38,774 bases of DNA, from assembly GCA_012798795.1 (NCBI GenBank), contig JAAZMN010000038.1:1-38774 (forward strand). Reading direction: 5' to 3'. The translations under genes were made by a program, and so were the position numbers. The DNA is from Bacillota bacterium (GTDB taxonomy: Bacteria > Bacillota > Limnochordia > Darwinibacteriales > DTU012). A model generated the notes under the pieces. The model searched no databases and was not told the DNA's origin. It saw only the letters and a list, made by a program, of their open reading frames with translations. Every line of letters begins with the position of its first letter. Position 1 is the stretch's first letter. Shown piece after piece: positions 3,948 through 23,570 of this stretch.

Positions 3948-3958
3948 GGTGAGCTTAG

Positions 3959-4327
3959 ATGGAAGATTTAGGTGCATTTCTACAACAAGCTAGGGAAGAA
4001 AGAAATTTAAGTATTGCTGATATTGCTGACAGAACTAAAATCAGGCAGCTGTATTTAACTGCAATTGAAAAAGGGGAAAGGGAGAATTTACCAGAGGAAG
4101 TATATTTACGCGGATTTTTGCGTAGTTATGCTAAGGCTTTGGGAATTGATCCGGAGGAAGTGATTGCTCTCTATGATAACAGGGGTGCTGAACGGATAAA
4201 GCAGTTTGAAAGGGTATCCTTGGTAGATAAGCGCAGAGCTGCACGTCAGCGCCAGAGAATTAACTTTCTTATTGGTGCTGGAATAATCATCATTGTTTTA
4301 TTAGCTTACCATTATTATTTTAGGTAA
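3959..4327 (+). CDS. rodZ: RodZ-like HTH membrane protein lacking the C-terminal extracellular domain
   Basis: LGxxLxxAREER...YLRGFLRSYAKALGID, basic patch, single C-terminal TM; position after ftsK. Confidence 0.75.
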   Translation: MEDLGAFLQQAREERNLSIADIADRTKIRQLYLTAIEKGERENLPEEVYLRGFLRSYAKALGIDPEEVIALYDNRGAERIKQFERVSLVDKRRAARQRQRINFLIGAGIIIIVLLAYHYYFR

Positions 4328-4339
4328 AAGATAGGAGGT

Positions 4340-7042
4340 ATGCGTAATATGGGAAAAACGAGGAGAACAATCTGGATTGTAATTGGATTGTTTGCAGTTA
4401 TTTTACTAGGCATAATTGCCGGTAGTCACTTTATAACTGAATTAATGTGGTTTAAAGCTTTAGGGTATTCGAAATTGTTTATCACTAGGCTTTCTTGGGA
4501 GTGGGCAGTCAAAATAGCGGCATGGTTGGGTTTATCTCTGTTTTTGTTTATCAATCTAATGATTGTAAAACCCATGATGAAGGGGTTGTTTGTGCGGTTT
4601 CAACAGTCGGGGAAAACTGTAAAAGATAAGCATTTAGTAATTATTTCTGTCTTAGTCTCCTTACTATTAGGCTTAATCTATTCCTCGGGATTTAGTAAAT
4701 ACTATTTTAATATAGCGCAGTTTTTTAATGCTGAATCATTTGATGTGGCAGATCCGGTATTTGGGAAGGATCTGAGTTTCTATTTTTTCATTCTTCCCGT
4801 ATTACAACTACTGACTCATGAATTCATCGGCGTTTTTGTCATTACAGCGGTAATATGTTCTGCAGTCTATTTCTTTACCGGTAATTTTCGTTTTGAAAAT
4901 CATAGATTGACTTTATCTACTTATGCTAAAAGGCACCTATCGGTTTTAGTCGGTTTGATATTTGTTGTGAAAGGAATCGGTTACTATCTGAATACTTTCA
5001 ATTTGTTATTTGAACCCAGTGGAGCCGTGTTTGGTGCGGGCTATACCGATGTTCATATCAGAGTAATCGTTCTTAAGATTTTAATGGTATTGGCATTTTT
5101 CGTAAGTATTATCATTTTTGCTCAATTATACCATTATCGTAAGCTGTTTTTTGGTTCATTGATTCTGTGGTTAGCAGTGAGCTTAATTGGCGGAGTTTTT
5201 CTGCCGCAATTTGTTCAGAATTGGGTGGTTGAACCTAATGAATTTACTCGCGAGCTGCCGTATATAGAGAATCATATTAAGATGACAAGACTTGCTTATG
5301 GGCTGGATGATTTTATCGAAATGAGTTTTCCTGTAAGTGAGCAGTTGACATGGGAAGATATCGAGAGCAGTCGTACTATGATAAATAATATTCGCTTATG
5401 GGATCCTAGGCTGATTCTTCAGACCTACGGTCAGCTTCAAGAAATGCGTCCGTACTATTTATTTAGTGATGCGGATGTGGGACGCTATTGGGTAGACGAT
5501 GAATATCGGGAAGTACTGCTTGCGGCACGGGAATTAGACGTGAGCTTAACTCAAAATAGGAATTGGATTAATGATCATCTTCAGTACACTCATGGGTATG
5601 GGGTAGTAGTCAGTCCTGTTAATGAAGTATCTCGTCAGCAGTTGCCTCAGTTTTGGGTGTCGGATATTCCGCCGAAAGGCAAAAGCGATTTGCAGATTAC
5701 GCAGCCAAGAATTTATTTCGGCGAACGGACTAATGAATATGCAATTGTAAATACTCGGATCGAGGAGTTTGACTATCCAACCGGTGAGGGTAACGCATAC
5801 TATACCTATCAGGGAGAAGCCGGAGTTGAGCTTTCGTCTTTACTGCATCGTTTAGTATTTTCTGTTCGTTTTGGCACTACTAGGCTTTTGTTGTCCAATG
5901 ATATTACTAGAGAAAGCAGAATATTGTTTGATCGTAATATTAAAACAAGGATAAATAAGATTGCTCCATTTTTGCGTTATGATAATGACCCGTATATTGT
6001 CATTTCTGATCAGGGTAACTTATTCTGGATAATTGATGCATATACGGTTTCCAGTCGTTTTCCTTATGCCAAACCTACTCCCGGATGGGGTAATTATATT
6101 CGTAATTCAGTAAAAGTAGTTGTTGATGCGTATAATGGTTCTGTAGGGTTTTACCAAGTCGAAGCTGATCTGCTACTGGAAGCATACAGTGCTATTTTCC
6201 CCGGCTGGTTAAAGCCGCTAAGTGAGATGCCCGAAGATCTGCAGGCTCATTTACGTTATCCGGAGGATTTTTTAGCAATTCAGGCAAAAATTTACGGTAC
6301 TTATCATATGCAGGATACCCGAGTTTTTTATAATCGCGAAGATGTTTGGGTTATGGCTCGTGAAATTTACGCTGAACGTGAACAGGAAGTGGTCCCATAT
6401 TATGTTGTCATGCAGTTAGCTGATGAATTAGCTCCGGAATTGCTGTTGATGATTCCATTTACACCTGTAAGGCGAAACAATATGATTGCCTGGCTTGCAG
6501 CTCGCAATGATGGGGAAAACTATGGTGAGGTCGTTGTCTATCAGTTCCCTAAAGATAGCTTGACGTTAGGGCCTGCCCAAATAGATGCTACAATTGATCA
6601 AGATTCGGATATTTCGCAGTTATTGAGTCTGTGGGGTCAGCGGGGCAGTCAGGTTATCAGGGGCAATCTGTTAGTATTACCAATTAAACATTCAATTTTA
6701 TATGTGGAACCACTATTTTTACAGTCTGAGCAGAGCAGCATGCCTCAGCTGCAGCGAGTAATTGTGGCTCATCAAGATGAATTAGTAATGGAGCAGTCAA
6801 TTGAGCAAGCTCTACGAGTACTTTTTGGCGAGGGCAATGCGGATATAAAAACAGAAGTTCCTAAGGATGTTCAAGCTAGAGTAGAGACTGATTTAGGTGA
6901 AATTTTCTATAGTGAATTGGGGCAGAAGGCATTTGATTTATATAAAAACGCTGAACAAGCTCTGCGTGAGGGAGACTTCACAAGCTTTGGCGAGGCTTGG
7001 GAACAATTAGAATCTGTTCTAAATAGATTAATAAATGAATAA
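4340..7042 (+). CDS. UPF0182 family integral membrane protein
   Basis: DPVFGKDLSFYFF, GAGYTDVH, NIRLWD, HLQYTHGYG, HLRYPEDF, VIRGNLLVLP; 900 aa. Confidence 0.93.
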   Translation: MRNMGKTRRTIWIVIGLFAVILLGIIAGSHFITELMWFKALGYSKLFITRLSWEWAVKIAAWLGLSLFLFINLMIVKPMMKGLFVRFQQSGKTVKDKHLVIISVLVSLLLGLIYSSGFSKYYFNIAQFFNAESFDVADPVFGKDLSFYFFILPVLQLLTHEFIGVFVITAVICSAVYFFTGNFRFENHRLTLSTYAKRHLSVLVGLIFVVKGIGYYLNTFNLLFEPSGAVFGAGYTDVHIRVIVLKILMVLAFFVSIIIFAQLYHYRKLFFGSLILWLAVSLIGGVFLPQFVQNWVVEPNEFTRELPYIENHIKMTRLAYGLDDFIEMSFPVSEQLTWEDIESSRTMINNIRLWDPRLILQTYGQLQEMRPYYLFSDADVGRYWVDDEYREVLLAARELDVSLTQNRNWINDHLQYTHGYGVVVSPVNEVSRQQLPQFWVSDIPPKGKSDLQITQPRIYFGERTNEYAIVNTRIEEFDYPTGEGNAYYTYQGEAGVELSSLLHRLVFSVRFGTTRLLLSNDITRESRILFDRNIKTRINKIAPFLRYDNDPYIVISDQGNLFWIIDAYTVSSRFPYAKPTPGWGNYIRNSVKVVVDAYNGSVGFYQVEADLLLEAYSAIFPGWLKPLSEMPEDLQAHLRYPEDFLAIQAKIYGTYHMQDTRVFYNREDVWVMAREIYAEREQEVVPYYVVMQLADELAPELLLMIPFTPVRRNNMIAWLAARNDGENYGEVVVYQFPKDSLTLGPAQIDATIDQDSDISQLLSLWGQRGSQVIRGNLLVLPIKHSILYVEPLFLQSEQSSMPQLQRVIVAHQDELVMEQSIEQALRVLFGEGNADIKTEVPKDVQARVETDLGEIFYSELGQKAFDLYKNAEQALREGDFTSFGEAWEQLESVLNRLINE

Positions 7043-7066
7043 TTTGTACTGCCTTTCGCATATATT
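7037..7066 (+). promoter_or_regulatory. Sporulation sigma (sigmaE/sigmaG-like) promoter of spoIIP
   Basis: GAATA-N17-CATATATT upstream of RBS. Confidence 0.55.
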
Positions 7067-7089
7067 TTCTGCGGAAGGGGGTATATAGC

Positions 7090-7866
7090 TTGTCAAGAAT
7101 CCGAAGAAAAGAGAAAGACGGTCCCGGTTTGTTGTTTATACTAGTTACTTTGATTGTAGTGGCAGTTGTCGGAGCAAAGTTTTTTGGTTTTTATCCGGAA
7201 AGTCCTGAACAGGAAAGTCCCGAACCACATATTTCCTTAGAGGATGAATCGGGTAAAATACCGCCTGCCCTAATGGTACCTAAAGTTTTAGTGTTTCACA
7301 GTCATGCAACTGAAAACTACAAACCAAAAACAAGTCATCAGCATGACTCAGAGCCTGGTGATATTGTGGAAGTAGGAAAAGTGTTTGTTCAGGCTTTGTT
7401 AGAAAAGGGAGTAGCAGCTGTTCATGATCAGACTATTCATGATCGGCCCCGCTACAGTGACGCATTTATTAATTCATCTAAGATAGTAGAAAAAGCACTG
7501 GCTGAAAATTCTCAAATCCAAATGGTTTTAGACATTCACCGAGATGGATTACAGGACAAACCTGCTGGGTACACTACTATAAGGGTTAAAGGGCAGGATG
7601 CTGCTAAGATCTTATTTGTTATTGGCGACAAAGATAATGATATGCTCGAAGAAAACCTTGCTTTTGCAAAACGAATCAGCGATGCATTAGATGCTAAATA
7701 TCCAGGGGTATCTCGTGGTGTTCGCGTATTTAAATCGGATTACAGTCAAGAGCTGCATCCTAACAGTGTAATGGTGGTAATAGGAGATTGGGAAGGTAAT
7801 ACAATTGAACAGGCATGTGCAAGTGCTTTATTATTAGCAGAGGTTATAGTACCGTTAATCAAGTAG
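7090..7866 (+). CDS. spoIIP: SpoIIP family protein (short; catalytic Glu apparently replaced)
   Basis: N-terminal TM, FHSHATENY, LDIHRD, YPGVSRG, YSQELHP. Confidence 0.85.
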   Translation: MSRIRRKEKDGPGLLFILVTLIVVAVVGAKFFGFYPESPEQESPEPHISLEDESGKIPPALMVPKVLVFHSHATENYKPKTSHQHDSEPGDIVEVGKVFVQALLEKGVAAVHDQTIHDRPRYSDAFINSSKIVEKALAENSQIQMVLDIHRDGLQDKPAGYTTIRVKGQDAAKILFVIGDKDNDMLEENLAFAKRISDALDAKYPGVSRGVRVFKSDYSQELHPNSVMVVIGDWEGNTIEQACASALLLAEVIVPLIK

Positions 7867-7872
7867 CCGGCG

Positions 7873-7898
7873 AAGGTGGGTCACTTGTGACCTACCTT
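7873..7898 (+). terminator. Stem-loop after spoIIP (possible terminator, weak U tract)
   Basis: AAGGTGGGTCAC-tt-GTGACCTACCTT with one G-U pair. Confidence 0.5.
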
Positions 7899-7982
7899 AC
7901 TCATTTTATGTTATTTATTCATATTTTAGCAGCTTATGGGAAATAATAGATTTAGGTGCCAGGCAGTTAAGGGGTGTGCAAA

Positions 7983-9341
7983 ATGAACCAAAGAATTCAT
8001 TTTATTGGAATTGGGGGCACAGGCATGGGTCCTCTGGCAAAGGTTTTTTTGGAAATGGGTTGGCAGGTAAGTGGGTCCGATTTAAAGGCTTCTGAAACAA
8101 CTCATTATTTGCAAAAATTAGGTGCAACAATATCATTGGGACATGCGGCTGAGAATATCGAGGGAGTATGTGATGTGGTTTATTCTTCTGCAATTCCATT
8201 TGACAACCCGGAATTAACTGCAGCGATAGAAAAAAACTTGAATATATATCACCGCTCGGAATTGTTAGCAAAATTACTGAATGAACGCCGAGGGATAGCC
8301 GTTGGGGGAGCTCACGGTAAAACCACAATTACATCAATGATTTCTTGGGTTTTAGATCAAGCTGGGCTGGACCCGACTATTTTAATTGGTGCGAGATTTG
8401 CTCCTTTCGGGCCTGGTGCAAAATTTGGCGGGGGTAATATTGCTGTTGCTGAAGCAGACGAATCAGATCGAAGCTTTCTTCGCTACCACCCTGAAATTGC
8501 CGTTGTCACCAGTATTGAAGCCGATCATTTAGAGAATTATAATGGTGACTTTTCCGAACTGATCAGTACTTATAAGCAGTTTTTAGAAAATGTAAAACCT
8601 AACGGAGTGGCAGTATTAGGTATTGATGATTATGAAGTACGAAAGATAACTGCTGTTTACCCAAATGCACTAACTTATGGTTTTTCAGAAGACGCTAAAT
8701 GGCGTGCAGAGATAACTGAACTTAAACAAGTACAAACAAAATTTTCTTTGTTCTTTCAGGGAGAAAAGTACGGGGATTTTACACTAAAGGTACCGGGTCG
8801 GCATAATGTAAGCAATGCGTGTGCTGCGATTGTGGTGTGCGACTTTTTAGGTTTATCAGCTGAAAAAATTGGACAACATCTTGCTACATTTTCTGGTGCC
8901 CAACGCAGGTTTCAGATTATCTGCGAAAAAAAAGGTGTTACAGTTGTAGATGACTATGCTCATCATCCTACTGAAATTATCGCCACTTTAAGAGCAGTGA
9001 GGGAAGGTTGGGATCGAAGGGTTATTGCAGTTTTTCAACCACATCGGTACAGCAGGACAAAATTTTTGTTCGACGAGTTTACTAAAGCGTTCTTTGATGC
9101 AGACATCATTATCTTAACTGATATTTATGCTCCGCCGCCTGAAGAACCTATAGCAGGAGTAAGTTCGGAGGTAATGGTGAAAAGAATTAGAGCTTTAGGA
9201 AAGGAAGTTTATTTAATTAAAGATCAAAAAGAGGTTGTTCGGTTTCTGATGAAGATTGTCAGGGCTAATGATATAATTATTACGATGGGCGCAGGCCCGA
9301 TTTGGAAAACAGCTAAAGAGGTTTGTCAGTTATTAGATTAA
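7983..9341 (+). CDS. murC: UDP-N-acetylmuramate--L-alanine ligase
   Basis: IHFIGIGGTGM, GAHGKTT, EADESD, DDYAHHPTE, FQPHRYSRT; ATG 7983 (GTG 7974 alternative). Confidence 0.96.
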   Translation: MNQRIHFIGIGGTGMGPLAKVFLEMGWQVSGSDLKASETTHYLQKLGATISLGHAAENIEGVCDVVYSSAIPFDNPELTAAIEKNLNIYHRSELLAKLLNERRGIAVGGAHGKTTITSMISWVLDQAGLDPTILIGARFAPFGPGAKFGGGNIAVAEADESDRSFLRYHPEIAVVTSIEADHLENYNGDFSELISTYKQFLENVKPNGVAVLGIDDYEVRKITAVYPNALTYGFSEDAKWRAEITELKQVQTKFSLFFQGEKYGDFTLKVPGRHNVSNACAAIVVCDFLGLSAEKIGQHLATFSGAQRRFQIICEKKGVTVVDDYAHHPTEIIATLRAVREGWDRRVIAVFQPHRYSRTKFLFDEFTKAFFDADIIILTDIYAPPPEEPIAGVSSEVMVKRIRALGKEVYLIKDQKEVVRFLMKIVRANDIIITMGAGPIWKTAKEVCQLLD

Positions 9342-10228
9342 TTTACTTCATATTGATTACTAACCGGATCATAAATTATCCGGTTTATTTTTCCCCTATT
9401 TCCTACCTGCATTATCCGATATTCTAATTTTGGTAAGTAAAGGTACGCTGCTCTAAGAGGTCTAATTTCGACTCTAGGTTTAGCACGTTTCATCAGTTCT
9501 GCAATTCGTATATTTTTTTGTTTAGAATCGGGCAGGCTCTGAAAGTAATCTTCTAATTGAGTGCGTTCTGCTTCTACCTGTTCGGCAGCAATAATTGCCC
9601 AGGCAGGATCAGAAAAACTCAGCTGTTCAGTAAGTTCTTCTTGCAGGCGAGTATAGGCTTGTTTATAGCTTAATTTTCGGCGATATTGAGGTTGTTTATC
9701 GGCGATAGTACCCGGTTTTAACAGATCAGCTGGAATTTCATAATTGACAACTTTTCCGTTGACTAAGTCTACTGGTATTTTCCGTAATTCTTCTCGTTTT
9801 TCGTATGCTAAGTAAGTCAAAAGGACGGTAAACCACAGGTAGGGACCGTAAACATACTTGTAATCAATTAAGTACCATCGATAACCGGGTTGTTTAATTT
9901 CGAGTCTATTAAGAATTTTACTGCGGATTGCCGGTTCATAAAAAGTATTGTGGGGAAGATAGCCTGAAGCTAGGATGGCTTGTTTTTTAATTAGACGGAT
10001 TAACGCATTTAGCCGATAACTGCCATAGCTGATTAGTTCGGCACCATAGGTTTCAGCTAACTGCTTATTAAAAGTAAATTGAAAAAGTCGGCCTTTAGCA
10101 CGCCAACCGTCTAATTCTTTTGCAAGTTGTTCATCTATATGAACCTGAAAAATTCCTTTGCGTATCTCTACAGGTTTTAAACTGCAGAGTTTAAAAAATT
10201 GAAATACCAAATCTTGAATTTGTTTCAT
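9338..10228 (-). CDS. yqhG: YqhG family protein
   Basis: Directly downstream of yqhH-like SNF2 gene; ELISYGSYRL, PYLW, DLVNG, WA..A....EAE...LEDYF; ATG 10228 after AAGGAG. Confidence 0.65.
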   Translation of the reverse strand: MKQIQDLVFQFFKLCSLKPVEIRKGIFQVHIDEQLAKELDGWRAKGRLFQFTFNKQLAETYGAELISYGSYRLNALIRLIKKQAILASGYLPHNTFYEPAIRSKILNRLEIKQPGYRWYLIDYKYVYGPYLWFTVLLTYLAYEKREELRKIPVDLVNGKVVNYEIPADLLKPGTIADKQPQYRRKLSYKQAYTRLQEELTEQLSFSDPAWAIIAAEQVEAERTQLEDYFQSLPDSKQKNIRIAELMKRAKPRVEIRPLRAAYLYLPKLEYRIMQVGNRGKINRIIYDPVSNQYEVN

Positions 10229-10238
10229 AACATTCTCC

Positions 10239-12029
10239 TTAGAAAATATTCCATGTTTGCTTTTTAATTTCTTCACGAGCTTCTAGTATAATATTTCCAA
10301 GGTTTTCTAATTCTTGATGAATTTTTTCTTTGGAATCCTGCCTGATAAAGATGTTCATTAATTGGCTTTCAAATGACTTATCTAGTTTTAGGTGCAGCAG
10401 AATGGCATCTAATTCTCCCAATACCATCTGAAACATATTAATCTTTTCGTGCAGCAGAAACATAATGTGTTCTTCAATGGTATTCTTAGTGACCAAATTA
10501 TAAATATTGACATCTTTAGTCTGCCCTAATCGATGAATTCGACCGATACGCTGTTCCAATCGCATGGGATTCCAGGGAAGGTCATAGTTGATTACATGGT
10601 TACAGAATTGAAAATTCAGTCCTTCTCCGCCTGATTCAGTGCTTACTAGAATACCACCGTCTTTTTGAAACAGATAACGAACCCATTCTTTGCGTCCCCG
10701 TGATAGGCTGCCGTCAAAAGCAAGAGTTTTGAAATTGGTTCGTTCTAATCGATATCGTATGTATTCTTGCGATGCTTTGTATTCTGTAAAAATAATGATG
10801 CGGTCATTAATCTTTGCTGCTAGCTTTTCTACAATGTCGCATTTGCTGTTCTGTTTTACATTTACAGCTTCACTAATCAGTTTCACAATATCAGATTCAT
10901 CGCCCAAATTATATTTTTGTGCCATTTTTTCTAAAGTCAATCCGGCAGCGTAAAAGCTGCTGCATACTTCTCTCTGCAGTGTTATTAATGGTAAAATATT
11001 AGTCTGGAAGGGCAGGGCTTTACTTGATTTTCTAATTAGATTCGTAATTTGATTATAAAGTCTTTTTTCAGCATCCGAAAGATGCACAAGAATGGGGAAG
11101 ACATTTCTTTTTGTAAATTCTACCGTGCCTTCACCACGGCGGTTGCGAATAATTACTCCGGAAAGCAGCTGCCGTAGACTCTCAGGATTTTTAGGGGTTC
11201 GCATATCAATCATAAATTTCTTTTTAAATGAACGATAACTGCCTAACTGTCCTGGTTTAAGCAGAGTAATCAAGTTGTAGAGTTCTTTAAGGTTATTCTG
11301 GATGGGAGTTGCTGTAAGCATTAAGCAATACTTTTTTTGTAAGGAATTAACTAATTTAAAAGCAGCAGTAGAACTGTTTTTTAGTTTATGTGCTTCGTCA
11401 ATTATTAGCATATCATAAGGAATATTCTGGATTATTTTGGCGTGAGGTTCTCTTTTAGCAGTGTCTATAGAAGCAATTAAAATATCAGCATGTTCCCAAT
11501 CCCACTGGCTTTTTTGAATTCCGGCTTGGATATCAAATTTTTCGTATAGCTCTTGGTACCACTGCCAGCAGAGCGAAGCTGGCGTTAAAATTAAAACATT
11601 TTTAACCAATCCCCGCAGCATATATTCTTTGAGAATAATTCCTGCTTCAATTGTTTTTCCTAACCCAACTTCATCTGCTAAAATTGCCAGTCCTTGAAAT
11701 TCTTGTAACACTTTTTCTGCTGTTTTGATCTGATGGGGGTAAGGTATTACACCTACTTGTTTCCATCTTTCAGCCAAATGTTCAGTACAGAGTAAGTTGG
11801 TAAATCCATGGGTTAGTGAAAGTAAATCTGCAATTTGAGCCAAGCGATGCCAATTAAGATCATCATAATTTCTCTTTCGTATTTGACGGATAATGTTTCG
11901 AAAACCAGAAAGGGAATATTTCACTGAAAAATGTTTCAGTGAAATAGGTTCAAGGAAGATTTCTTCTTTATCATCTTTTGAGTCCGTATAGTTAAACAGC
12001 GGTACGTTAATCTGTAATGGATCAAGCAA
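10239..12029 (-). CDS. yqhH: YqhH-like SNF2 family helicase/ATPase
   Basis: ILADEVGLGKT, IIDEAH, LTATPIQN, GGEGLNFQ, YDLPWNPMRLEQRIGRIHRLGQ; AAGGAGG RBS, TTG start. Confidence 0.9.
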   Translation of the reverse strand: MLDPLQINVPLFNYTDSKDDKEEIFLEPISLKHFSVKYSLSGFRNIIRQIRKRNYDDLNWHRLAQIADLLSLTHGFTNLLCTEHLAERWKQVGVIPYPHQIKTAEKVLQEFQGLAILADEVGLGKTIEAGIILKEYMLRGLVKNVLILTPASLCWQWYQELYEKFDIQAGIQKSQWDWEHADILIASIDTAKREPHAKIIQNIPYDMLIIDEAHKLKNSSTAAFKLVNSLQKKYCLMLTATPIQNNLKELYNLITLLKPGQLGSYRSFKKKFMIDMRTPKNPESLRQLLSGVIIRNRRGEGTVEFTKRNVFPILVHLSDAEKRLYNQITNLIRKSSKALPFQTNILPLITLQREVCSSFYAAGLTLEKMAQKYNLGDESDIVKLISEAVNVKQNSKCDIVEKLAAKINDRIIIFTEYKASQEYIRYRLERTNFKTLAFDGSLSRGRKEWVRYLFQKDGGILVSTESGGEGLNFQFCNHVINYDLPWNPMRLEQRIGRIHRLGQTKDVNIYNLVTKNTIEEHIMFLLHEKINMFQMVLGELDAILLHLKLDKSFESQLMNIFIRQDSKEKIHQELENLGNIILEAREEIKKQTWNIF

Positions 12030-12058
12030 TGAGTATCCTCCTTGGTTTAGTCTAATAG

Positions 12059-12088
12059 TAGTGTTGCCGAATTTGTTTTTGCTTATCC
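12059..12088 (-). promoter_or_regulatory. sigmaF/sigmaG-type promoter of yqhH-yqhG
   Basis: Minus strand GGATA-N15-GGCAACACTA; B. subtilis yqhHG is a forespore sigmaF operon. Confidence 0.65.
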
Positions 12089-12094
12089 ATTGGA

Positions 12095-12157
12095 AAAATA
12101 AAAATCATCCTATTTATCTTGGTAAACAAAAAAGATATTTAGGATGATTTTTATTTT
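12095..12157 (-). terminator. Long intrinsic terminator ending the atp operon
   Basis: Perfect 18-nt arms AAAATAAAAATCATCCTA / TAGGATGATTTTTATTTT plus inner TATCTT/AAGATA; overlaps atpH stop. Confidence 0.78.
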
Positions 12158-12680
12158 AGTTAAAAAGCAGAGTTTGTTTTAACTGTTTGAATGAATTAAC
12201 CAAGCTTAAGTCAATTATTTTCCCGTCAACTTCTATGCTTAAACCTCCCCAAATACGTGGGTCAATAGTGGTTTCTACATCAATTTTTTTACGAGTCAGA
12301 GCTGCTAAACGCTGTTGAATTTCTTCAACGGTTTCTTCATCGAGTTGGACTGCAGAACGAATATAAGCTACAGTCATATTCCGCTTTTGATTCAGGATCT
12401 TGGTAAACTCCCGAGAAATAAATTCTAACAAAACCGCACGATTTTTTTCAAAAACCAGCAGTAAAAAGGGTTCTAGCGGTGTACCTAGATCTAAAGAACG
12501 GACTAATTTGTGCTTCATCGACAGTGTAGTCTGTGGATGAAGTAAAAAATTTTGTATTTCTGGTTCTAAAAAGGATGTGCTGACTTGATCTAACAGCTGA
12601 CTGATTTTAGTTAAGTCATCTTCTGCAGTAACCTGGTAAAGAGCTTGTGCGTATCGAACTGCTACATTGATATCACTCAT
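12156..12680 (-). CDS. atpH: F-type ATP synthase subunit delta
   Basis: VAVRYAQAL, SAVQL, IDPRIWGGL.IEVDGKIIDLS; ATG 12680 overlaps atpF stop (ATGA). Confidence 0.92.
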   Translation of the reverse strand: MSDINVAVRYAQALYQVTAEDDLTKISQLLDQVSTSFLEPEIQNFLLHPQTTLSMKHKLVRSLDLGTPLEPFLLLVFEKNRAVLLEFISREFTKILNQKRNMTVAYIRSAVQLDEETVEEIQQRLAALTRKKIDVETTIDPRIWGGLSIEVDGKIIDLSLVNSFKQLKQTLLFN

Positions 12681-13183
12681 TGCCATTCACCTGTTTCTTG
12701 CTGCTCTAAAGTATTCAATGCATCATCAATCAGTTTCTGATGTTTAGCTTGGTCAAGGGAATCTTGGATAATCTTAGCTGAAATAGTTATGGCAAGATCT
12801 GCAACTTCATCTTTTAGAGATTCTTTAAGTTGGGCCCGTTCCAATGTAAGTTCTTCTTTTGTTCGTTTATAAATCAAATCCGCTTCTTTTTTGGCTTCTG
12901 CTACCATTTCAGTTTGAATTTCTTCACCACGACGAACTGCCTGATCTAAATATTCTTTTGCTTTTTGTTTACTTTGTTTTAGTTCAGCCTCTAATTGATT
13001 ATGCAGTTTAGCGGCGGCTTCATTCTGTTCGTTTGCAGATTTAATTTGTTGTTCAATACTGCGAGTACGCTCATCTAAAAAGCTGCGTACCGGTTTATAG
13101 AGCAATCTTGTTAGGATAATAAGGAGCAAAATAAAGTTAACGGTTGACGCTAACATAGTGCTTGTGTCAAACAATATCCTCAC
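12677..13183 (-). CDS. atpF: Fo subunit b
   Basis: VNFILLLIILTRLLYKPVRSFLDER then long charged coiled coil; start GTG 13183 or TTG 13174. Confidence 0.93.
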   Translation of the reverse strand: MRILFDTSTMLASTVNFILLLIILTRLLYKPVRSFLDERTRSIEQQIKSANEQNEAAAKLHNQLEAELKQSKQKAKEYLDQAVRRGEEIQTEMVAEAKKEADLIYKRTKEELTLERAQLKESLKDEVADLAITISAKIIQDSLDQAKHQKLIDDALNTLEQQETGEWQ

Positions 13184-13228
13184 CCTTTTAATATGAATCT
13201 GGTTTGTCTACTTAAACAGCAGCTAACA

Positions 13229-13259
13229 ATAGGGTACAGTTTAGTTGACTGCACCCTAT
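13229..13259 (-). promoter_or_regulatory. Intercistronic stem-loop after atpE
   Basis: mRNA AUAGGGUGCAGU-caacuaa-ACUGUACCCUAU, 12 bp with a G-U pair only on the minus strand. Confidence 0.65.
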
Positions 13260-13264
13260 AATTG

Positions 13265-13543
13265 CTAGCCAAGCAGTTCCATTAGTTTGTTAAATAAAGG
13301 TACTGCAATAGTAAAAATTAGTAACAATGATACAGCCAATGAATAAACACCTGTGGATTCGGAGATGACTTGACCAAGAATCATCGTAGTTCTAAGAGTG
13401 TCCGAAGCTTCAGGATTTCTTGCCATTCCTTCAACTGCTTTACCTGCTACATATCCCTCAGCAATAGCTACTCCGGCTCCTGCTAATAAAGCAATACCTG
13501 AACCTATTGCAATGGCAGCAATAATTATTGCAATCTCTAGCAT
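13265..13543 (-). CDS. atpE: Fo subunit c, Na+-type signature
   Basis: Two TM helices, ARNPE loop, E29 and E62-S63-T64-x-x-Y67. Confidence 0.96.
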   Translation of the reverse strand: MLEIAIIIAAIAIGSGIALLAGAGVAIAEGYVAGKAVEGMARNPEASDTLRTTMILGQVISESTGVYSLAVSLLLIFTIAVPLFNKLMELLG

Positions 13544-13564
13544 TAATCTCCCTCCTTTCTTGGC

Positions 13565-14209
13565 CTACTCTAAACGAATTTGGATATAGGTAAGTGCCAA
13601 TAATGTAAAAACAAAGGCTTGAATAGCTCCCATAAATACTCCAAACCACAGCATAATCGGAATTGGGACTACATATGGAACAAACATATAGAGTATGTTT
13701 AAAATTACTGCCCCACCAAAAATATTTCCGTAAAGCCTGAATGAGTGAGACAACACTTTAGATAACTCACCAATAACATTTAAAGGAAACATAATCCAGT
13801 AAGGACTAAAATATCCTTTAATATAAGCACCCAAACCTTTCACTTTTATTTCATTAACGTGTGCTACTATTAATACAATCAATGCCAATGTAAATGTAAC
13901 ACTAAGATCTTGTGTAGGTGATTCACAACCAGGAACAAGTCCTATTATGTTTGCAGTAAAGACGAATAACGCAACAGTTATAATAAAAGGAGTATAGACT
14001 CTGCCGTTTTCTCCTAAATGTTTGACAACTAATGAGTCAATACCATCGACGATTAGTTCTACGATATGCTGTGTGCCTGTAGGAATAGTTTTTAAATTAC
14101 GAGTAAAAACGAAACTGGCAACAGCCAAAATCAGCAGGATAATCCAGGTAAAAAAAATAGATTGAGTGATGGGTATTGAAAAAACAGTAAACAGTACTTC
14201 TGGTTGCAT
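13565..14209 (-). CDS. atpB: Fo subunit a
   Basis: NIIGLVP, SPT.DL, LSHSFRLYGN (essential Arg), IQAFVFTLL. Confidence 0.96.
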   Translation of the reverse strand: MQPEVLFTVFSIPITQSIFFTWIILLILAVASFVFTRNLKTIPTGTQHIVELIVDGIDSLVVKHLGENGRVYTPFIITVALFVFTANIIGLVPGCESPTQDLSVTFTLALIVLIVAHVNEIKVKGLGAYIKGYFSPYWIMFPLNVIGELSKVLSHSFRLYGNIFGGAVILNILYMFVPYVVPIPIMLWFGVFMGAIQAFVFTLLALTYIQIRLE

Positions 14210-14221
14210 TTTAGTCTCTCC

Positions 14222-14587
14222 TTAGTTTCTCTTTTGTAACAAAACAAAAGTAACAGTGATGAATTTAGGTAATAGCAATCCGATTAAAGTTGCAGCAAAA
14301 TTAGTATAAGGGTTGACAATACCCACTGTCAGAGTAATTGCGTACATTCCATAACGTTTAAAATAGTTTCTTAACGCTTGTTTTTTCACATTAGAAACGG
14401 AGCTACTTGTTAATTTGTATACATCTAGCGTTAAGATACGAAAAATAAACGCACCCATAAGGCCGCCAAGAATAATTCCAAGAGCAAATTGATAATATGC
14501 AGGGAGAATTAAAATTAATAATCCTCCTATGAGAATTGGTGTTATAATAGCGGCTGAATAAATAGTTTTTTCAAGAGGTTGTTTCAT
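14222..14587 (-). CDS. atpI: ATP synthase protein I (UncI)
   Basis: Four TM helices, basic loop RNYFKRY, precedes atpB; ATG 14587 overlaps upstream stop (ATGA). Confidence 0.85.
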   Translation of the reverse strand: MKQPLEKTIYSAAIITPILIGGLLILILPAYYQFALGIILGGLMGAFIFRILTLDVYKLTSSSVSNVKKQALRNYFKRYGMYAITLTVGIVNPYTNFAATLIGLLLPKFITVTFVLLQKRN

Positions 14588-14805
14588 TTGTCCCAATCAT
14601 CCAAGGATATTTTAATCAAAATTTGATAAGCGGTCCAAAGACCCGATGCGACACCAAGGAAAATAAAAATCAGTGTCAAAATAATAGTTGTACCAAATAA
14701 TTTGTCAAGATATAATCCAATCAGAGTGCAAATTGCCACTGATAATATAATTGTTAATGCTATCTGGGTAAACAAACCTAAATATTTCCAAGGATTTTGG
14801 CTCAT
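14584..14805 (-). CDS. atpZ: AtpZ/AtpQ family small membrane protein
   Basis: 73 aa, IGLYLDKLFGT hairpin motif, first gene of the atp operon. Confidence 0.85.
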   Translation of the reverse strand: MSQNPWKYLGLFTQIALTIILSVAICTLIGLYLDKLFGTTIILTLIFIFLGVASGLWTAYQILIKISLDDWDK

Positions 14806-14824
14806 TGTTTTACCCCTTGCTTAT

Positions 14825-14853
14825 ATTCTATCTAATAACTGCTGCATAATCAA
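14825..14853 (-). promoter_or_regulatory. sigmaA promoter of the atp operon
   Basis: Minus strand TTGATT-N17-TAGAAT, 19 nt above the atpZ ATG. Confidence 0.7.
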
Positions 14854-14988
14854 TTCCACAGAATACCATTATTTCCTTCTTTTTTTAGATAGATATTTGC
14901 TTAATTGAGGTTTAATGAGGAGGAAAACAACTATCAAAAATAGAAACTCACAAATAGATTATAATTAAGTATGTGAGGAAATCTAGAA

Positions 14989-16332
14989 ATGTCGAAAACT
15001 GTTGGAATAATATCCTTGGGCTGTGCCAAAAACTTAGTTGACACTGAAATTGCCCTCGGATATCTGCATGAAGCCGGTTATACAATTGTTACAGAGCCAA
15101 AATTAGCACAGATTTTGATTGTAAACACCTGCGGATTTATTGATCCGGCTAAAGAGGAGTCGATTAATTGTATACTAGAGATGGCAGAGTATAAAAATAT
15201 AGGCGTGTGCCGCTGCTTAATTGTGATGGGTTGTCTGTCAACTCGTTACAGGGATGAATTGTGGAACGAGATTCCTGAAATAGACGGGTTATTGGGGATA
15301 TCAGAAATGGCACTTATCCCTAAAATTATTGCTAAAATCCTATCTGGCCAACGGGTTTACTGTTTTAGAGATCAGTATTTTTCTTATGATGATCCTCAAA
15401 TACCGAGAATAATTTCAACCGGAAGACACAGTGCATATCTAAAAATTGCCGAAGGCTGTAATCACCGCTGTGCTTTTTGTATTATACCCAAAATCCGGGG
15501 ACCGTATCGTTCGCGAAAATTTGAGGCTGTAATTGCTGAAGCAGAAAAACTTGCTGTCAGTGGTGTTAAAGAGCTTAATGTAATAGCACAAGATACAACT
15601 AAGTACGGTACTGATTTAGAAAATAATTATTCCTTAGTAGATTTATTAACGGAATTAGTTAAAATTGATATACCTTGGATTCGTCTTTTATATGCTTATC
15701 CTGCTTTTTTTCCAGACGAAATAATTGATTTAATGGCTCGGCATGACAATTTGATCAGTTATATTGACTTGCCGCTGCAGCATGCGTCCGCATCGATACT
15801 GCGGCGGATGAGGCGTCCGGGTAGTTATGAGAGCAGCTTGGCGTTAATTAAGAAAATTCGCAGCCGAATACCTGATGCAGCAGTGAGAAGTTCATTTATT
15901 GTTGGTTTTCCTGGAGAAACCAAGGAGGATTTTAATCTACTATTGGATTTTCTAGCTGAAGCCAAACTGCAGCACTGCGGTATATTTCAATTTTCTGCTG
16001 AGGAAGGTACTGCTGCGTATTCTATGCCGGAACAGATCAGTGATGAGATTAAAAATCAGCGTTATGATCAAGCCATGTTACTGCAGCAGCAGATTTCTTT
16101 TGCCCATCAGCAAAAGCTAATCGGCCGTAAGTTAGAAGTTTTAATTGAAGGTCGCTCGGATGAAAGTGAATTAGTGATTGTCGGCAGGCACCGCCATCAA
16201 GCACCTGATGTCGATGGTCTAGTATATATAGGTAACAAGCAGGCAAACATAGGAGATTTAGTTAATGTTAAGATAATTCAAGCTCATCCATATGATTTGG
16301 TTGGAGAGATTATAGAAGGGGATGTCAAGTAA
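14989..16332 (+). CDS. rimO: Ribosomal protein S12 methylthiotransferase RimO
   Basis: SLGCAKNLVD, NTCGFI, AYLKIAEGCNHRCAFC, APDVDG TRAM; adjacent to pgsA. Confidence 0.95.
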   Translation: MSKTVGIISLGCAKNLVDTEIALGYLHEAGYTIVTEPKLAQILIVNTCGFIDPAKEESINCILEMAEYKNIGVCRCLIVMGCLSTRYRDELWNEIPEIDGLLGISEMALIPKIIAKILSGQRVYCFRDQYFSYDDPQIPRIISTGRHSAYLKIAEGCNHRCAFCIIPKIRGPYRSRKFEAVIAEAEKLAVSGVKELNVIAQDTTKYGTDLENNYSLVDLLTELVKIDIPWIRLLYAYPAFFPDEIIDLMARHDNLISYIDLPLQHASASILRRMRRPGSYESSLALIKKIRSRIPDAAVRSSFIVGFPGETKEDFNLLLDFLAEAKLQHCGIFQFSAEEGTAAYSMPEQISDEIKNQRYDQAMLLQQQISFAHQQKLIGRKLEVLIEGRSDESELVIVGRHRHQAPDVDGLVYIGNKQANIGDLVNVKIIQAHPYDLVGEIIEGDVK

Positions 16333-16851
16333 ATGGGGTTGGCTAATTGGATCACAATGTTCCGGATTTTTATTGTACCAATATTTATGGCTTTTGTCTT
16401 AAGTGGAGATCCATACGGCAGTTTTCTGGCAGCTATCGTATTTGGGATTGCCGCAATCACTGATGGGTTAGACGGATATGTTGCGAGAAAGCGCAAACAG
16501 GTTACTAAGTTTGGAAAATTGATTGATCCGGTGGCTGATAAGCTGCTGATCAGTTCTGCTTTAATCAGTTTAGTAGAGCTAGATCAGATTAGTGCCTGGA
16601 TTGCAGTAATAATTATTGGCCGAGAGTTTGCAGTATCTGGTCTGAGAATTTTAGCTGCTGCAGAAGGTGTAGTTATTGCTGCAACTATTTGGGGGAAAAT
16701 TAAAACACTTACCCAGATAATCGCCATATTATTTATGCTGCTAGACGTGAAAGGTGCGATGGTTATTATGTGGTTAGCAGTTGTGGCAACAATAGTATCT
16801 GGTGTGGATTACTTTGTTAATGCTCAGGAACTACTGAAGAAGAAAGCTTGA
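16333..16851 (+). CDS. pgsA: CDP-diacylglycerol--glycerol-3-phosphate phosphatidyltransferase
   Basis: TDGLDGYVARK...FGKLIDPVADKLL, REFAVSGLR. Confidence 0.96.
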   Translation: MGLANWITMFRIFIVPIFMAFVLSGDPYGSFLAAIVFGIAAITDGLDGYVARKRKQVTKFGKLIDPVADKLLISSALISLVELDQISAWIAVIIIGREFAVSGLRILAAAEGVVIAATIWGKIKTLTQIIAILFMLLDVKGAMVIMWLAVVATIVSGVDYFVNAQELLKKKA

Positions 16852-16899
16852 GTTAAAAATATGAGGATGTATGTTCCTCGATATTTTATTGTCAAAATA

Positions 16900-16919
16900 C
16901 CTGACTGATATAAGTCAGG
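16900..16919 (+). terminator. Short hairpin after pgsA
   Basis: CCTGACT-gatata-AGTCAGG then CTTT. Confidence 0.4.
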
Positions 16920-16937
16920 CTTTAATGAGAGAGGGTG

Positions 16938-17477
16938 ATGTTCTTGGAATTAGGAGGTTTCCGGATTAAAATTGTACTACTGGTTTTTATTATAACTTTG
17001 TCTCTTGCACTTGGAGTTCAGTATCTCAGTTATCAGAAGCGAGTGATTGAACCTATTATAAGGGTGTTTTCGGAAATAGACGGAGTAATTCAAATTGAAA
17101 CGGAGAGACAGCATTCTGGTATAAAATTGATTATCGCTCTTGGAGATTGCGCCAGATTTGATCAAGTAATGCATAATATCCTATCTGCAGCTGAAAGATT
17201 TGATTCACTTTTAAAAATTGAGATTAAAGATGCTGGAAACAGCAGGTTAGAACAGATTTATCATGAAATGCACTACGCAATTGAACAGGCTGTAGTAATA
17301 GGCGATTTTAGAGAAATGGCTGTGGTGATTGAAGAGATTGCCCAACAGAATAACATTAAGTATCGAATTACAATTGATAGAGAATATGTTTATCTTCAAT
17401 TACATGAAGCCGATAATTATTTATATCAGTTAATATGCCGTCACAATCAACCGATTGCAGTACGTTTTGAACGATAG
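16938..17477 (+). CDS. Hypothetical membrane-anchored protein
   Basis: One N-terminal hydrophobic helix then about 150 aa soluble domain; start GTG 16935/ATG 16938 uncertain. Confidence 0.75.
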   Translation: MFLELGGFRIKIVLLVFIITLSLALGVQYLSYQKRVIEPIIRVFSEIDGVIQIETERQHSGIKLIIALGDCARFDQVMHNILSAAERFDSLLKIEIKDAGNSRLEQIYHEMHYAIEQAVVIGDFREMAVVIEEIAQQNNIKYRITIDREYVYLQLHEADNYLYQLICRHNQPIAVRFER

Positions 17478-23548: not shown

Positions 23549-23570
23549 TTGATTTTCGGAGGTCTTTAGT

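What the first reader, a model, noticed from the sequence alone, without database searches (positions are those of the whole stretch)
12095..14853. Self-contained Fo+delta ATP synthase operon with no alpha/gamma/beta/epsilon genes
Seen: atpZ-I-B-E-F-H are intact, with two ATGA overlaps. They are bounded by a TTGATT-N17-TAGAAT promoter and an 18-bp-arm terminator overlapping the atpH stop; the next gene is yqhH. Known: Bacillota normally continue atpH-A-G-D-C in one operon, and common split operons usually keep delta with alpha. Inference: this is a discrete rotor-plus-stator module. It could be a swappable second Fo that docks a shared F1 (delta keeps its RYAxAL alpha-binding helix) to change coupling ion, an unusual operon split, or an F1-independent Na+ conduit.
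Basis: partly seen in the sequence, partly recalled or inferred. Interest (0 to 1): 0.85.

Follow-up and report, generated by a model that had tools for sequence, protein, structure and literature searches.

The report
Split ATP synthase operon, Fo+delta half
This is the membrane half (plus the delta connector) of an ordinary sodium-type ATP synthase whose catalytic half lies elsewhere in the same genome, an unusual gene split shared by a whole order of uncultured digester bacteria.

Summary
atpZ-I-B-E-F-H lie intact on the minus strand at 12156-14805, with two ATGA overlaps, a promoter-like site and a strong hairpin at the atpH stop; yqhH follows.

The bold readings fail for this genome. It has one atpA-G-D-C cluster on another contig, directly after wecB, and no second a, b, c or delta gene and no V-type a subunit.

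Misassembly is excluded. DNA contigs from two studies bridge the junction, and the same layout recurs in relatives.

The split is still noteworthy:
- atpH and atpA are separated in 35 of 41 genomes of this order, an uncultured Limnochordia lineage. They are adjacent in 48 of 48 informative genomes of the class's other orders.
- The cut falls between delta and alpha, which is uncommon.
- The c subunit carries the full two-carboxylate Na+ motif of Fusobacterium nucleatum.
- One relative (G003) pairs a foreign-type Fo+delta with the native F1, so the block has been exchanged in evolution.

Whether the order itself gained its Fo+delta from outside or only moved it is unresolved. I rate this a new variant of a known kind, of moderate interest.

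The parts
14825..14853 (-). promoter-like site TTGATT-N17-TAGAAT upstream of atpZ
   Evidence: 9 of 12 matches; such sites not enriched: 17 against 14.0 +/- 3.7 in shuffles; sequence read. RNA contigs of two studies end at 14862 and 14830, which is only a weak hint.
14584..14805 (-). atpZ (small membrane protein, PF09527 ATPase_gene1), 73 aa
   Evidence: 1.3e-15, 57.6 bits against a cut-off of 26.6.
14222..14596 (-). atpI (PF03899). The likely start is the ATG at 14587, overlapping the atpZ stop as ATGA
   Evidence: (1.1e-06, 29.4 bits against a cut-off of 25.1).
13565..14209 (-). atpB, Fo subunit a, 214 aa, with the conserved SHSFRLYGN arginine motif
   Evidence: 6.3e-49. R158-L159-Y160-G161-N162 are invariant in 8 order members.
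13265..13543 (-). atpE, Fo subunit c, 92 aa, with the two-carboxylate Na+-type ion site (AIAEGY ... ISESTGVYSL)
   Evidence: 1.2e-15; best solved matches are the Na+ c-rings 4bem (2e-26), 3zk1 (1.6e-21) and 1yce (9.2e-21), with the motif aligned residue for residue to 3zk1. Site residues are defined in PMC3692424.
12677..13183 (-). atpF, Fo subunit b, 168 aa
   Evidence: 8.6e-23.
12156..12686 (-). atpH, subunit delta (OSCP), full length. The likely start is the ATG at 12680, overlapping the atpF stop as ATGA
   Evidence: 1.7e-33, profile 1-172 of 172. It is the only delta gene in the genome.
12095..12157 (-). A/U-rich hairpin overlapping the atpH stop codon; likely intrinsic terminator
   Evidence: 26-nt arms, 92%; dG -26.7 kcal/mol, z -6.46, 0 of 200 shuffles. 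RNA contigs of two studies stop at 12168 and 12224 while DNA contigs run on, which is only a weak hint.
10239..12029 (-). yqhH-like SNF2 helicase: downstream border of the slot that holds the Fo+delta block
   Evidence: rimO and yqhH are divergent neighbours across the class. They are directly adjacent, with no atp genes between, in G003-G008.
14989..16332 (+). rimO/miaB-family radical-SAM methylthiotransferase: upstream, divergently transcribed border of the slot
   Evidence: It lies upstream of atpZ in 28 of the 33 order-type named loci.

Best explanation
The region is one half of the genes for a single, ordinary F1Fo ATP synthase that is encoded at two loci.

The window block atpZ-I-B-E-F-H makes the membrane sector (a, c-ring, b2), its assembly helpers (AtpZ, AtpI) and the delta connector. 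It is apparently its own transcription unit, running from a promoter near 14825-14853 to a hairpin terminator at 12095-12157. The catalytic core alpha3-beta3-gamma-epsilon is encoded by atpA-G-D-C on contig C35, directly after wecB; the atpA start overlaps the wecB end.

Shown: gene content, single copy of every subunit, the conserved split, and the junctions.

Inferred:
- The two products assemble into one enzyme. Delta, made together with b, docks onto the finished alpha3-beta3 head through the alpha N-terminus.
- The enzyme is Na+-coupled, because the c subunit has every side chain of the Fusobacterium nucleatum two-carboxylate Na+ site.

The split arose once, in the ancestor of this order of uncultured Limnochordia. 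The F1 genes stayed in the ancestral tagO-wecB-atp position, and the Fo+delta block came to lie between rimO and yqhH. I judge gain of a Na+-type Fo+delta cassette followed by loss of the native one slightly more likely (about 0.55) than plain relocation (about 0.4). This step is not settled.
For: Own genome (1.77 Mb, 242 contigs, 92.6% complete):
- PF00006 gives 4 matches: atpA and atpD on C35, a FliI-type ATPase on C203 and Rho on C213.
- The C35 order is GT4 (tagO-like), wecB, atpA, atpG, atpD, atpC, M23 peptidase, spoIIID, mreB-like.
- Subunits c, a, delta and b give one match each above the cut-off, all in the window.
- The V-type a subunit gives none.

Conservation:
- In the order, atpH and atpA are split in 35 of 41 genomes, adjacent in 4 and missing in 2.
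- In the other orders of the class they are adjacent in 48 of 54 and missing in 6, with no splits.
- In G035 the two genes lie on one contig about 452 kb apart, on opposite strands.
- The neighbours are the same in fetched relatives: rimO | atpZ..H then yqhH, and tagO-wecB-atpAGDC.
- Of 47 named loci, all 33 with a subunit a at least 47% identical to the window's lack atpA; 24 of these show 2 kb or more downstream of atpH. All 14 less similar loci have atpA next to the Fo genes.

Ancestral state:
- tagO/wecB is followed by a contiguous atpB-E-F-H-A-G-D-C operon in outgroup Bacillota (L077, L078).
- The same holds in 8 of 11 loci from the class's other orders outside f9. A ninth, f10, has wecB directly before atpF-H-A-G-D-C.

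Junction and transcript:
- DNA contigs of two studies bridge atpH/yqhH (X5 spans 9000-17000 in one piece; X8 spans 10454-17000).
- RNA contigs of two metatranscriptome studies cover 12168-14862 and 12224-14830.

Na+ type:
- Two RnfD/NqrB-family genes are in the genome.

Assembly logic: in the Acetobacterium woodii Na+ enzyme, alpha3beta3gamma-epsilon forms on its own, delta binds only the finished hexamer, and AtpI is needed for the c-ring (PMC8904574, passages read).

Origin:
- The F1 tree puts the order with the H+-motif families (100/100*).
- The Fo+delta tree puts it with family f11 and an outgroup Bacillota (99/97*).
- AU tests reject the alternatives at p 0.0036 for Fo and 3e-8 for F1.
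Against: - The genome is a draft bin (92.6% complete, 3.4% contamination). A second Fo or F1 set in unassembled DNA cannot be excluded, and the two contigs are linked only by binning and by the same pattern in relatives.
- No assay shows Na+ coupling; the motif is a sequence inference.
- The promoter match is weak and not above chance.
- The RNA evidence comes from assembled contigs. These cannot show true transcript ends or strand, and assemblers often break at hairpins.
- Co-transcription of atpAGDC with wecB rests only on the 17-nt overlap. No RNA was laid on C35.
- For the origin, under a site-heterogeneous model with the long type-b branch removed, the AU test against 'order plus H-type Fo' is only borderline (p 0.0496, dlnL 12.3).
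- The H-type Fo clade sits on a very long stem (1.33), so fast evolution could mimic foreign origin.
- The tested groups were named after the quick trees had been seen.
Confidence: 0.9

Rival explanations
1. The split arose by plain relocation of vertically inherited Fo+delta genes. One rearrangement moved atpZIBEFH from between wecB and atpA to the rimO-yqhH slot. The Fo of the H+-motif families then diverged fast from a shared Na+-type ancestor.
For: With the mixture model and without the type-b rows, the Fo data barely reject 'order plus H-type' as one clade (p 0.0496). The H-type Fo stem is very long (0.51 under LG+G4; 1.33 under the mixture model), while its F1 stem is short (0.07). This fits rate acceleration. 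I looked for no mobile-element genes around the block; the Pfam scans of its neighbours show core genes only.
Against: The Fo+delta tree groups the order with f11 and an outgroup Bacillota (99/97*; support 90 under the mixture model). The F1 data reject that grouping (p 3e-8). Under LG+G4 the Fo data reject 'order plus H-type' (p 0.0036). In f10, which sits weakly next to the order in the F1 tree (89/71), the b subunit that stayed at the wecB locus is H-type (99*). Gain-and-loss is the route seen in G003 and f10.
Confidence: 0.4
2. The block is a second, alternative Fo that shares one F1 with another Fo in the same cell, or it works without F1 as a Na+ conduit.
For: The block has its own promoter-like site and terminator-like hairpin and carries delta. 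The genome is 7.4% incomplete by marker count.
Against: Each of a, b, c and delta has only one match above the cut-off in the genome, all in the window. There is one alpha/beta pair and no V-type a subunit. Relatives also show one atpH per genome as a rule: 39 of the 40 genomes with a match have one place, and G005 has two. Without this block the genome's F1 would have no Fo, and the block's full-length delta has no other known role than binding F1.
Confidence: 0.03
3. The atpH/yqhH junction, or the placing of the two contigs in one genome, is an assembly or binning artefact.
For: The genome is a 242-contig bin with 3.4% contamination.
Against: Contigs from DNA runs of two different studies bridge the junction (one of them may be the source of the window). 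The same junctions recur in independent bins. 24 named order loci show 2 kb or more after atpH without atpA. wecB directly precedes atpA in 8 of the 9 fetched relatives. One relative has both loci on a single 1.13-Mb contig.
Confidence: 0.02
4. The enzyme is H+-coupled despite the Na+-like motif.
For: No biochemical data exist for this lineage, and ion choice also depends on ion concentrations in the habitat. Within the order the motif varies: several f3 members have SESGAIY, with Gly where Thr67 would be, and G012 has Gln in place of the first Glu.
Against: The window's c subunit keeps the equivalents of Glu32, Glu65, Ser66, Thr67 and Tyr70. Its closest solved relatives are three Na+ c-rings. 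Its nearest named relatives come from soda-lake samples. RnfD-family genes are present.
Confidence: 0.15

Closest known systems
Split atp operons of Alphaproteobacteria (Rhodospirillum rubrum type: atpIBEFF' plus atpHAGDC)
   Same: One F1Fo enzyme is encoded at two distant loci, one mostly membrane sector and one mostly catalytic sector. The pattern is conserved across a whole clade (PMC5709465, sections 16-17 read).
   Different: There the cut lies between b and delta, so delta travels with F1. Here it lies between delta and alpha, so delta travels with Fo. The survey's dominant patterns are eps-beta | gamma..a, eps..delta-b | c-a, eps..delta | b-c-a, and eps..delta-b | c | a. None is the two-part a-c-b-delta | alpha-gamma-beta-eps pattern. 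The survey does report a delta-b-c-a unit within three-part splits, for example in some Bacteroidetes. Its supplementary tables were not visible to me and may list more.
Fusobacterium nucleatum Na+ F1Fo ATP synthase, c11 ring with two-carboxylate motif (PDB 3ZK1/3ZK2; PMC3692424)
   Same: The c subunit aligns over residues 5-86 at E 1.6e-21. It has the same Glu32, Glu65, Ser66, Thr67 and Tyr70 equivalents.
   Different: Ring size and ion specificity are untested here. Position 63 is Ile rather than Val (a backbone ligand) and position 64 is Ser rather than Ala. I did not examine the gene layout in F. nucleatum.
Acetobacterium woodii Na+ F1Fo ATP synthase (PDB 4BEM; assembly study PMC8904574)
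   Same: It is the best solved match of the c subunit (2e-26) and it depends on AtpI. Its assembly pathway treats alpha3beta3gamma-epsilon as one autonomous unit, with delta joining afterwards. That matches the gene partition seen here.
   Different: From the cloning passage read, which names atpHAGDC as the F1 genes, and otherwise from recall, A. woodii keeps all genes in one operon and has a mixed c-ring with a duplicated c1. The window has a single ordinary c gene.
Laboratory hybrid ATPases that combine Propionigenium modestum Fo with Escherichia coli F1 (recalled; not found in the library searched)
   Same: A Na+-type membrane sector can work with a foreign F1. As I recall, the functional hybrids carried delta from the Fo donor, the same module boundary as here and in G003.
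   Different: Those are engineered constructs. G003 would be a natural case.

Membership tests
Bacterial F-type ATP synthase (F1Fo) | Fo subunits a, b and c present, with the conserved arginine of subunit a and the helix-2 carboxylate of subunit c | tested here: met
   PF00119, PF00430 and PF00137 match above their cut-offs. The R158 motif is invariant in 8 order members. The Glu65 equivalent is aligned to solved c-rings.
Bacterial F-type ATP synthase (F1Fo) | Full-length delta (OSCP) subunit | tested here: met
   PF00213 matches at 1.7e-33 over profile positions 1-172 of 172.
Bacterial F-type ATP synthase (F1Fo) | Alpha, gamma, beta and epsilon genes in the same genome | tested here: met
   Found on contig C35: PF00006+PF00306 (alpha), PF00231 (gamma), PF00006 (beta), PF02823+PF00401 (epsilon).
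Bacterial F-type ATP synthase (F1Fo) | The products of the two loci form one complex | not testable with these tools
   Inferred from the single copy of every subunit. No complex prediction was run, because a textbook pair passes by likeness to solved structures.
Na+-coupled F-ATPase with two-carboxylate c-ring site (F. nucleatum type) | Second carboxylate at the Glu32 position of helix 1 | tested here: met
   AIAEGY aligns with GIGEGY of 3zk1. The residue's role is taken from PMC3692424.
Na+-coupled F-ATPase with two-carboxylate c-ring site (F. nucleatum type) | Glu65, Ser66, Thr67 and Tyr70 equivalents | tested here: met
   ISESTGVYSL aligns with VAESTGIYSL of 3zk1.
Na+-coupled F-ATPase with two-carboxylate c-ring site (F. 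nucleatum type) | Na+-dependent activity and Na+ binding | not testable with these tools
   This needs the expressed enzyme. The organism is uncultured (PMC12663870, passages read).
N-type ATPase (atpD-C-Q-R-B-E-F-A-G) | Own gene order beta-epsilon-Q-R-a-c-b-alpha-gamma, and no delta subunit | tested here: not met
   The order here is Z-I-a-c-b-delta, with a full delta. The defining order is recalled; it is also mentioned in PMC5709465 section 17.
Alphaproteobacterial-type split (Fo operon without delta, F1 operon with delta) | Cut between b and delta | tested here: not met
   atpH overlaps atpF and ends the Fo operon. atpA follows wecB with no atpH before it.
   There is one match above the cut-off for each of PF00119, PF00137 and PF00430 in a genome 92.6% complete.

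The most novel reading that the evidence does not exclude
In this class of bacteria, Fo+delta behaves as an exchangeable cassette that can be swapped under an unchanged F1 engine.

- G003, a member of the window's own family, runs the native alpha-gamma-beta-epsilon genes at the wecB locus. Its Z-I-a-c-b-delta block is of a different lineage, 70% identical to the contiguous operon of genus g5 and only about 35% to the native type.
- Family f10 has replaced only a, c and one b.
- The whole order may owe its Na+-type, two-carboxylate membrane sector, and therefore its split operon, to an earlier swap of the same kind that changed the coupling-ion site.

Cutting the operon between delta and alpha would then be the trace of a natural rule for building chimeric rotary ATPases: delta goes with the stator it binds.
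Probability: 0.5. Interest if true: 0.65.

Novelty: new variant of a known kind. Interest (0 to 1): 0.45.

Why it matters
Split atp operons are known, so the basic finding is ordinary: the catalytic genes are simply elsewhere. Three things give it some value.

- **A clean marker for the order.** The delta|alpha cut defines an abundant, uncultured order of anaerobic-digester and soda-lake bacteria. It is a genomic marker, and it warns annotators that the F-type ATPase of these genomes lies at two loci. The order's description paper says only that the complex is encoded.
- **Na+ energetics.** The Na+-type two-carboxylate c subunit, together with Rnf-family genes, predicts sodium-based energy conservation in a group proposed to matter in biogas reactors. 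This can be tested by heterologous expression.
- **Natural chimeras.** G003 and f10 combine membrane and catalytic sectors of different ancestry. They show which subunit sets tolerate exchange, which bears on the long-argued modular origin of rotary ATPases and on the design of hybrid enzymes.

Tried and rejected
- **Second Fo, V-type enzyme or missing F1 in this genome:** searched and not found, or refuted.
- **Weak matches judged to be chance:** a PF00119 match at window 23547-23747 (E 0.013, one TGA inside) lies in a metallophosphatase gene. Weak OSCP matches on C137 and C173 (E 0.02-0.04) are below the cut-off.
- **Misassembly:** rejected.
- **N-ATPase:** rejected on gene order and the presence of delta.
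- **f10's a and c genes in the rimO-yqhH slot as an intermediate:** not so. The gap there holds a large membrane protein and a methyltransferase-like gene. The f10 a-c-b' block lies on another contig, and its a subunit is not sister to this order's.
- **Downstream genes of G003 and g5:** the sugar-transporter genes that follow atpH in G003 gave no matching hits in the fetched g5 loci. How the type-b F1 genes were lost in G003 is not shown.
- **Order-level origin:** the LG+G4 result (p 0.0036) did not hold at that strength under the mixture model (p 0.0496), so I do not claim it.
- **Promoters inside wecB for atpA:** matches exist but are at chance level (20 against 18.3 +/- 4.4).
- **RNA depth:** the depth contrast (about 40 on the atp contig against about 6 on yqhH contigs) is one figure per contig and is not used as a measure of expression.
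- **Rows left out of the trees:**
  - The Fo concatenation kept rows with at least 3 of 4 proteins (34 rows; G005 and G065 dropped).
  - The F1 concatenation kept rows with at least 2 of 3 (35 rows; the Thermotogae outgroup dropped).
  - One search also removed G003, G004, G006, G007, G053b and G057b.
  - Gene starts in the tree sets were picked automatically and not curated, so the short lengths of the H-type c subunits (61-76 aa as extracted) are not reliable.
- **Literature searches:**
  - One search was badly framed and gave nothing useful.
  - One search did not find the hybrid-ATPase papers that I recall.
  - No paper describing this split in Limnochordia or 'Candidatus Darwinibacteriales' turned up. 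Supplements are closed, and those of PMC5709465 may list such patterns.

Full report
WHAT IS THERE.

On the minus strand of the window lie six intact genes:
- atpZ (14805..14584)
- atpI (14596..14222)
- atpB (14209..13565)
- atpE (13543..13265)
- atpF (13183..12677)
- atpH (12686..12156)

Each matches its Pfam family above the curated cut-off.

The TTGATT-N17-TAGAAT site is at 14853..14825, but it is a 9-of-12 match and such matches are at chance level in this A+T-rich region. The hairpin at the atpH stop is strong: 26-nt arms, dG -26.7 kcal/mol, z -6.46, and no shuffle of 200 folds as well. Downstream come a SNF2 helicase (yqhH-like) and YqhG. Upstream and divergent come rimO and pgsA.

WHERE THE F1 GENES ARE.

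The window is a whole contig (C148) of a 242-contig draft genome, 1.77 Mb and 92.6% complete. The alpha/beta family has four matches in it:
- atpA and atpD on contig C35
- a flagellar FliI-type ATPase on C203
- Rho on C213

C35 reads tagO-like GT4, wecB, atpA, atpG, atpD, atpC, M23 peptidase, spoIIID, mreB-like. The atpA start overlaps the wecB end by 17 nt, and there is no atpH before it. Subunits c, a, delta and b each have one match above the cut-off, all in the window. The V-type a subunit has none.

So the genome has one Fo+delta and one alpha-gamma-beta-epsilon set.

NOT AN ARTEFACT.

Near-identical copies of the locus are held by 14 DNA runs of 7 studies from digesters, sludge and wastewater (some may be the source). 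Contigs of two of these studies bridge the atpH/yqhH junction.

Metatranscriptome contigs of two further studies cover 12168-14862 and 12224-14830, almost exactly atpZ to atpH. Separate contigs cover yqhH and rimO. Contigs cannot give true RNA ends, and assemblers break at hairpins, so this is only a weak hint of a discrete transcript.

THE SPLIT DEFINES A CLADE.

I searched atpH (protein, then family) and atpA in the genome's relatives and in its whole class of 95 species genomes and tallied positions.

| Group | Genomes | Split | Adjacent | One or both genes missing |
|---|---|---|---|---|
| Own order | 41 | 35 | 4 (all genus g5) | 2 |
| Other orders of the class | 54 | 0 | 48 | 6 |

Of the 35 split genomes, 34 have the genes on different contigs. 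G035 has them on one contig about 452 kb apart. In three split genomes (G015, G019, G028) atpH lies within 260 bases of a contig end, so its downstream gene cannot be seen.

Fetched neighbourhoods of ten relatives show the same two layouts:
- yqhG, yqhH, atpH-F-E-B-I-Z | rimO, pgsA, a conserved unknown gene, ftsH-like
- tagO, wecB, atpA-G-D-C, M23, spoIIID, mreB-like

A scan of named genome records with an alignment of the a subunit returned 47 loci. All 33 with at least 47% identity to the window's a subunit lack atpA: 28 have rimO upstream, 31 have atpH, and 24 show 2 kb or more beyond atpH. All 14 less similar loci have atpA in a contiguous operon.

The record titles name the relatives as Limnochordia, as 'Candidatus Darwinibacter acetoxidans', and as many digester and soda-lake bins. 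I infer that the order is the one described as 'Candidatus Darwinibacteriales', formerly MBA03. [quoted passage not shown]

WHICH HALF MOVED.

tagO/wecB directly precedes a contiguous atp operon in outgroup Bacillota (L077, L078). It does so too in 8 of 11 loci from the class's other orders outside f9. A ninth, f10, has wecB directly before atpF-H-A-G-D-C.

rimO and yqhH are divergent neighbours across the class, 0.3 to 18 kb apart. So the F1 genes kept the ancestral place, and the Fo+delta block came to lie in the rimO-yqhH slot.

ION TYPE.

The c subunit's best solved matches are three Na+-binding rings: A. woodii 4bem, F. nucleatum 3zk1 and I. tartaricus 1yce. Aligned to 3zk1, it has the equivalents of Glu32, Glu65, Ser66, Thr67 and Tyr70. 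These residues form the two-carboxylate Na+ site (PMC3692424, passages read).

The families whose F1 is closest to this order's carry a different c motif (AFMEALTLF) without the Ser/Thr ligands. The genome has two RnfD/NqrB-family genes. Na+ coupling is therefore my inference; it is untested.

HOW IT LIKELY WORKS.

The partition matches two units that assemble on their own. In the A. woodii Na+ enzyme, alpha3beta3gamma-epsilon forms as a stable subcomplex, delta binds only the finished hexamer, and AtpI is needed for the c-ring (PMC8904574, passages read).

- Locus 2 encodes exactly that core.
- Locus 1 encodes the ring, its helper, a, b and the connector delta.
- The alpha N-terminus, which delta binds (recalled), is conserved.
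- Separate transcription would let the cell set the high c and b dosage apart from F1.
- It would tie F1 expression to wecB, or to a promoter inside it. This last point is inferred from the overlap only.

EXCHANGE OF THE BLOCK IN RELATIVES.

Genus g5 of the window's family has a contiguous operon of another type ('type b'). Type b also occurs as a second operon in family f9.

G003 (genus g4, 98% complete) has the following:
- an empty rimO|yqhH slot;
- the native-type F1 at the wecB locus, 76% identical to G001 over 1260 columns;
- as its only Fo, a type-b Z-I-a-c-b-delta block followed by sugar-transporter genes, not by atpA. Against G004, identities are a 79%, c 88%, b 63% and delta 57%. Against the native type they are about 35%.

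Concatenated trees place G003's Fo+delta inside type b (100/100*) and its F1 inside the native clade (100/100*). AU tests reject the opposite placements (p 1e-7; p 8e-7). The caveat is that G003 is a bin, and the groups were named after I had seen the quick trees.

Family f10 shows a partial case. wecB-atpF-atpH-atpAGDC sits at one locus, with b in the H-type clade (99*). A separate Z-I-a-c-b' block, with a two-carboxylate c subunit, sits on another contig.

G011 has a three-way split: atpZ-F-H in the slot, atpI-B-E elsewhere and atpAGDC elsewhere.

ORIGIN OF THE ORDER'S BLOCK.

- The F1 tree joins the order to the H-type families (100/100*).
- The Fo+delta tree joins it to f11 and an outgroup Bacillota (99/97*).
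- Under LG+G4 each data set rejects the other's grouping (p 0.0036; p 3e-8).
- Under a mixture model with type b removed, the Fo topology stays (support 90) but the AU test is borderline (p 0.0496). The H-type Fo stem is very long there.

I therefore hold gain-and-loss as slightly more likely than relocation, and mark the question as open.

COMPARISON WITH WHAT IS KNOWN.

A survey of 2248 strains lists the common splits. None is the two-part a-c-b-delta | alpha-gamma-beta-epsilon pattern, though a delta-b-c-a unit occurs in three-part splits (PMC5709465, sections 16 and 17 read; supplements not seen).

Verdict: an ordinary enzyme with an uncommon, clade-wide gene split. It is a new variant of a known kind. 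The more novel lead is the natural Fo+delta/F1 chimeras in relatives.

Noticed in passing
L028 (G003:C126) 7421-10237 and L038 (G003:C24) 7761-11978: G003 pairs a type-b atpZ-I-B-E-F-H block, followed by sugar ABC-transporter genes, with native-type atpAGDC at the wecB locus. Its rimO|yqhH slot is empty. This would be a natural Fo+delta/F1 chimera.
   Followed up: yes
L110 (G065:C24) 2254-8952 and L121 (G065:C7) 374-2503; G066:C109 alike: Family f10 has wecB-atpF-atpH-atpA-G-D-C at one locus. A separate atpZ-I-B-E block plus a second b-like gene lies on another contig, so the enzyme may have two different b subunits of different ancestry.
   Followed up: partly
L031 (G011:C53) 6819-8105 and L118 (G011:C61) 6331-7655: G011 (family f4) shows a three-way split. 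atpZ-atpF-atpH lie in the rimO-yqhH slot, atpI-B-E sit next to leuS on another contig, and atpAGDC are on a third.
   Followed up: partly
G008 (genus g5, 94% complete): I found no atpH, atpA or subunit-a gene with the queries used. Either the genes are unassembled or this species lacks an F-type ATPase.
   Followed up: no
G046:C37:21575-22636; G042:C250, G043:C19, G044:C11: In family f6 the OSCP matches lie in long open frames of 292-378 aa. In G046 there are three OSCP-like stretches in one frame. This suggests b-delta fusions or a repeated delta domain just upstream of atpA.
   Followed up: no
G050:C1:14686-16113, G088:C14:13587-14963, G086:C164, G087:C44, G091:C66, G094:C129, G049:C148: Several genomes of families f8 and f16 hold a second alpha-like gene only 49-53% identical to the window genome's atpA. 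These may belong to second, divergent rotary ATPase operons.
   Followed up: no
alpha N-terminus of G003 (L038, start of atpA): The delta-binding N-terminal helix of G003's native-type alpha reads ILKQQIKNYQAEI. At two or three positions it is closer to type b (VIKQQIKSYSSQL) than to its native relatives (ILKRQIEQFEAEI). This is a weak hint of co-adaptation to the foreign delta.
   Followed up: partly
L005 (G000:C35) 13242-13258: The atpA start overlaps the end of wecB by 17 nt. In relatives the gap is about -2 to +25 nt. The F1 genes therefore have no intergenic promoter region of their own.
   Followed up: partly
window 16935-17477 (+) and 21248-22231 (-): Two genes have no Pfam match. The first (180 aa) is conserved between pgsA and the ftsH-like gene across the order.
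   Followed up: no
G000:C179:2249-3127 and G000:C9:3344-4210: The genome has two RnfD/NqrB-family genes, the second in a 594-aa open frame. It may therefore have two Rnf/Nqr-type complexes.
   Followed up: no
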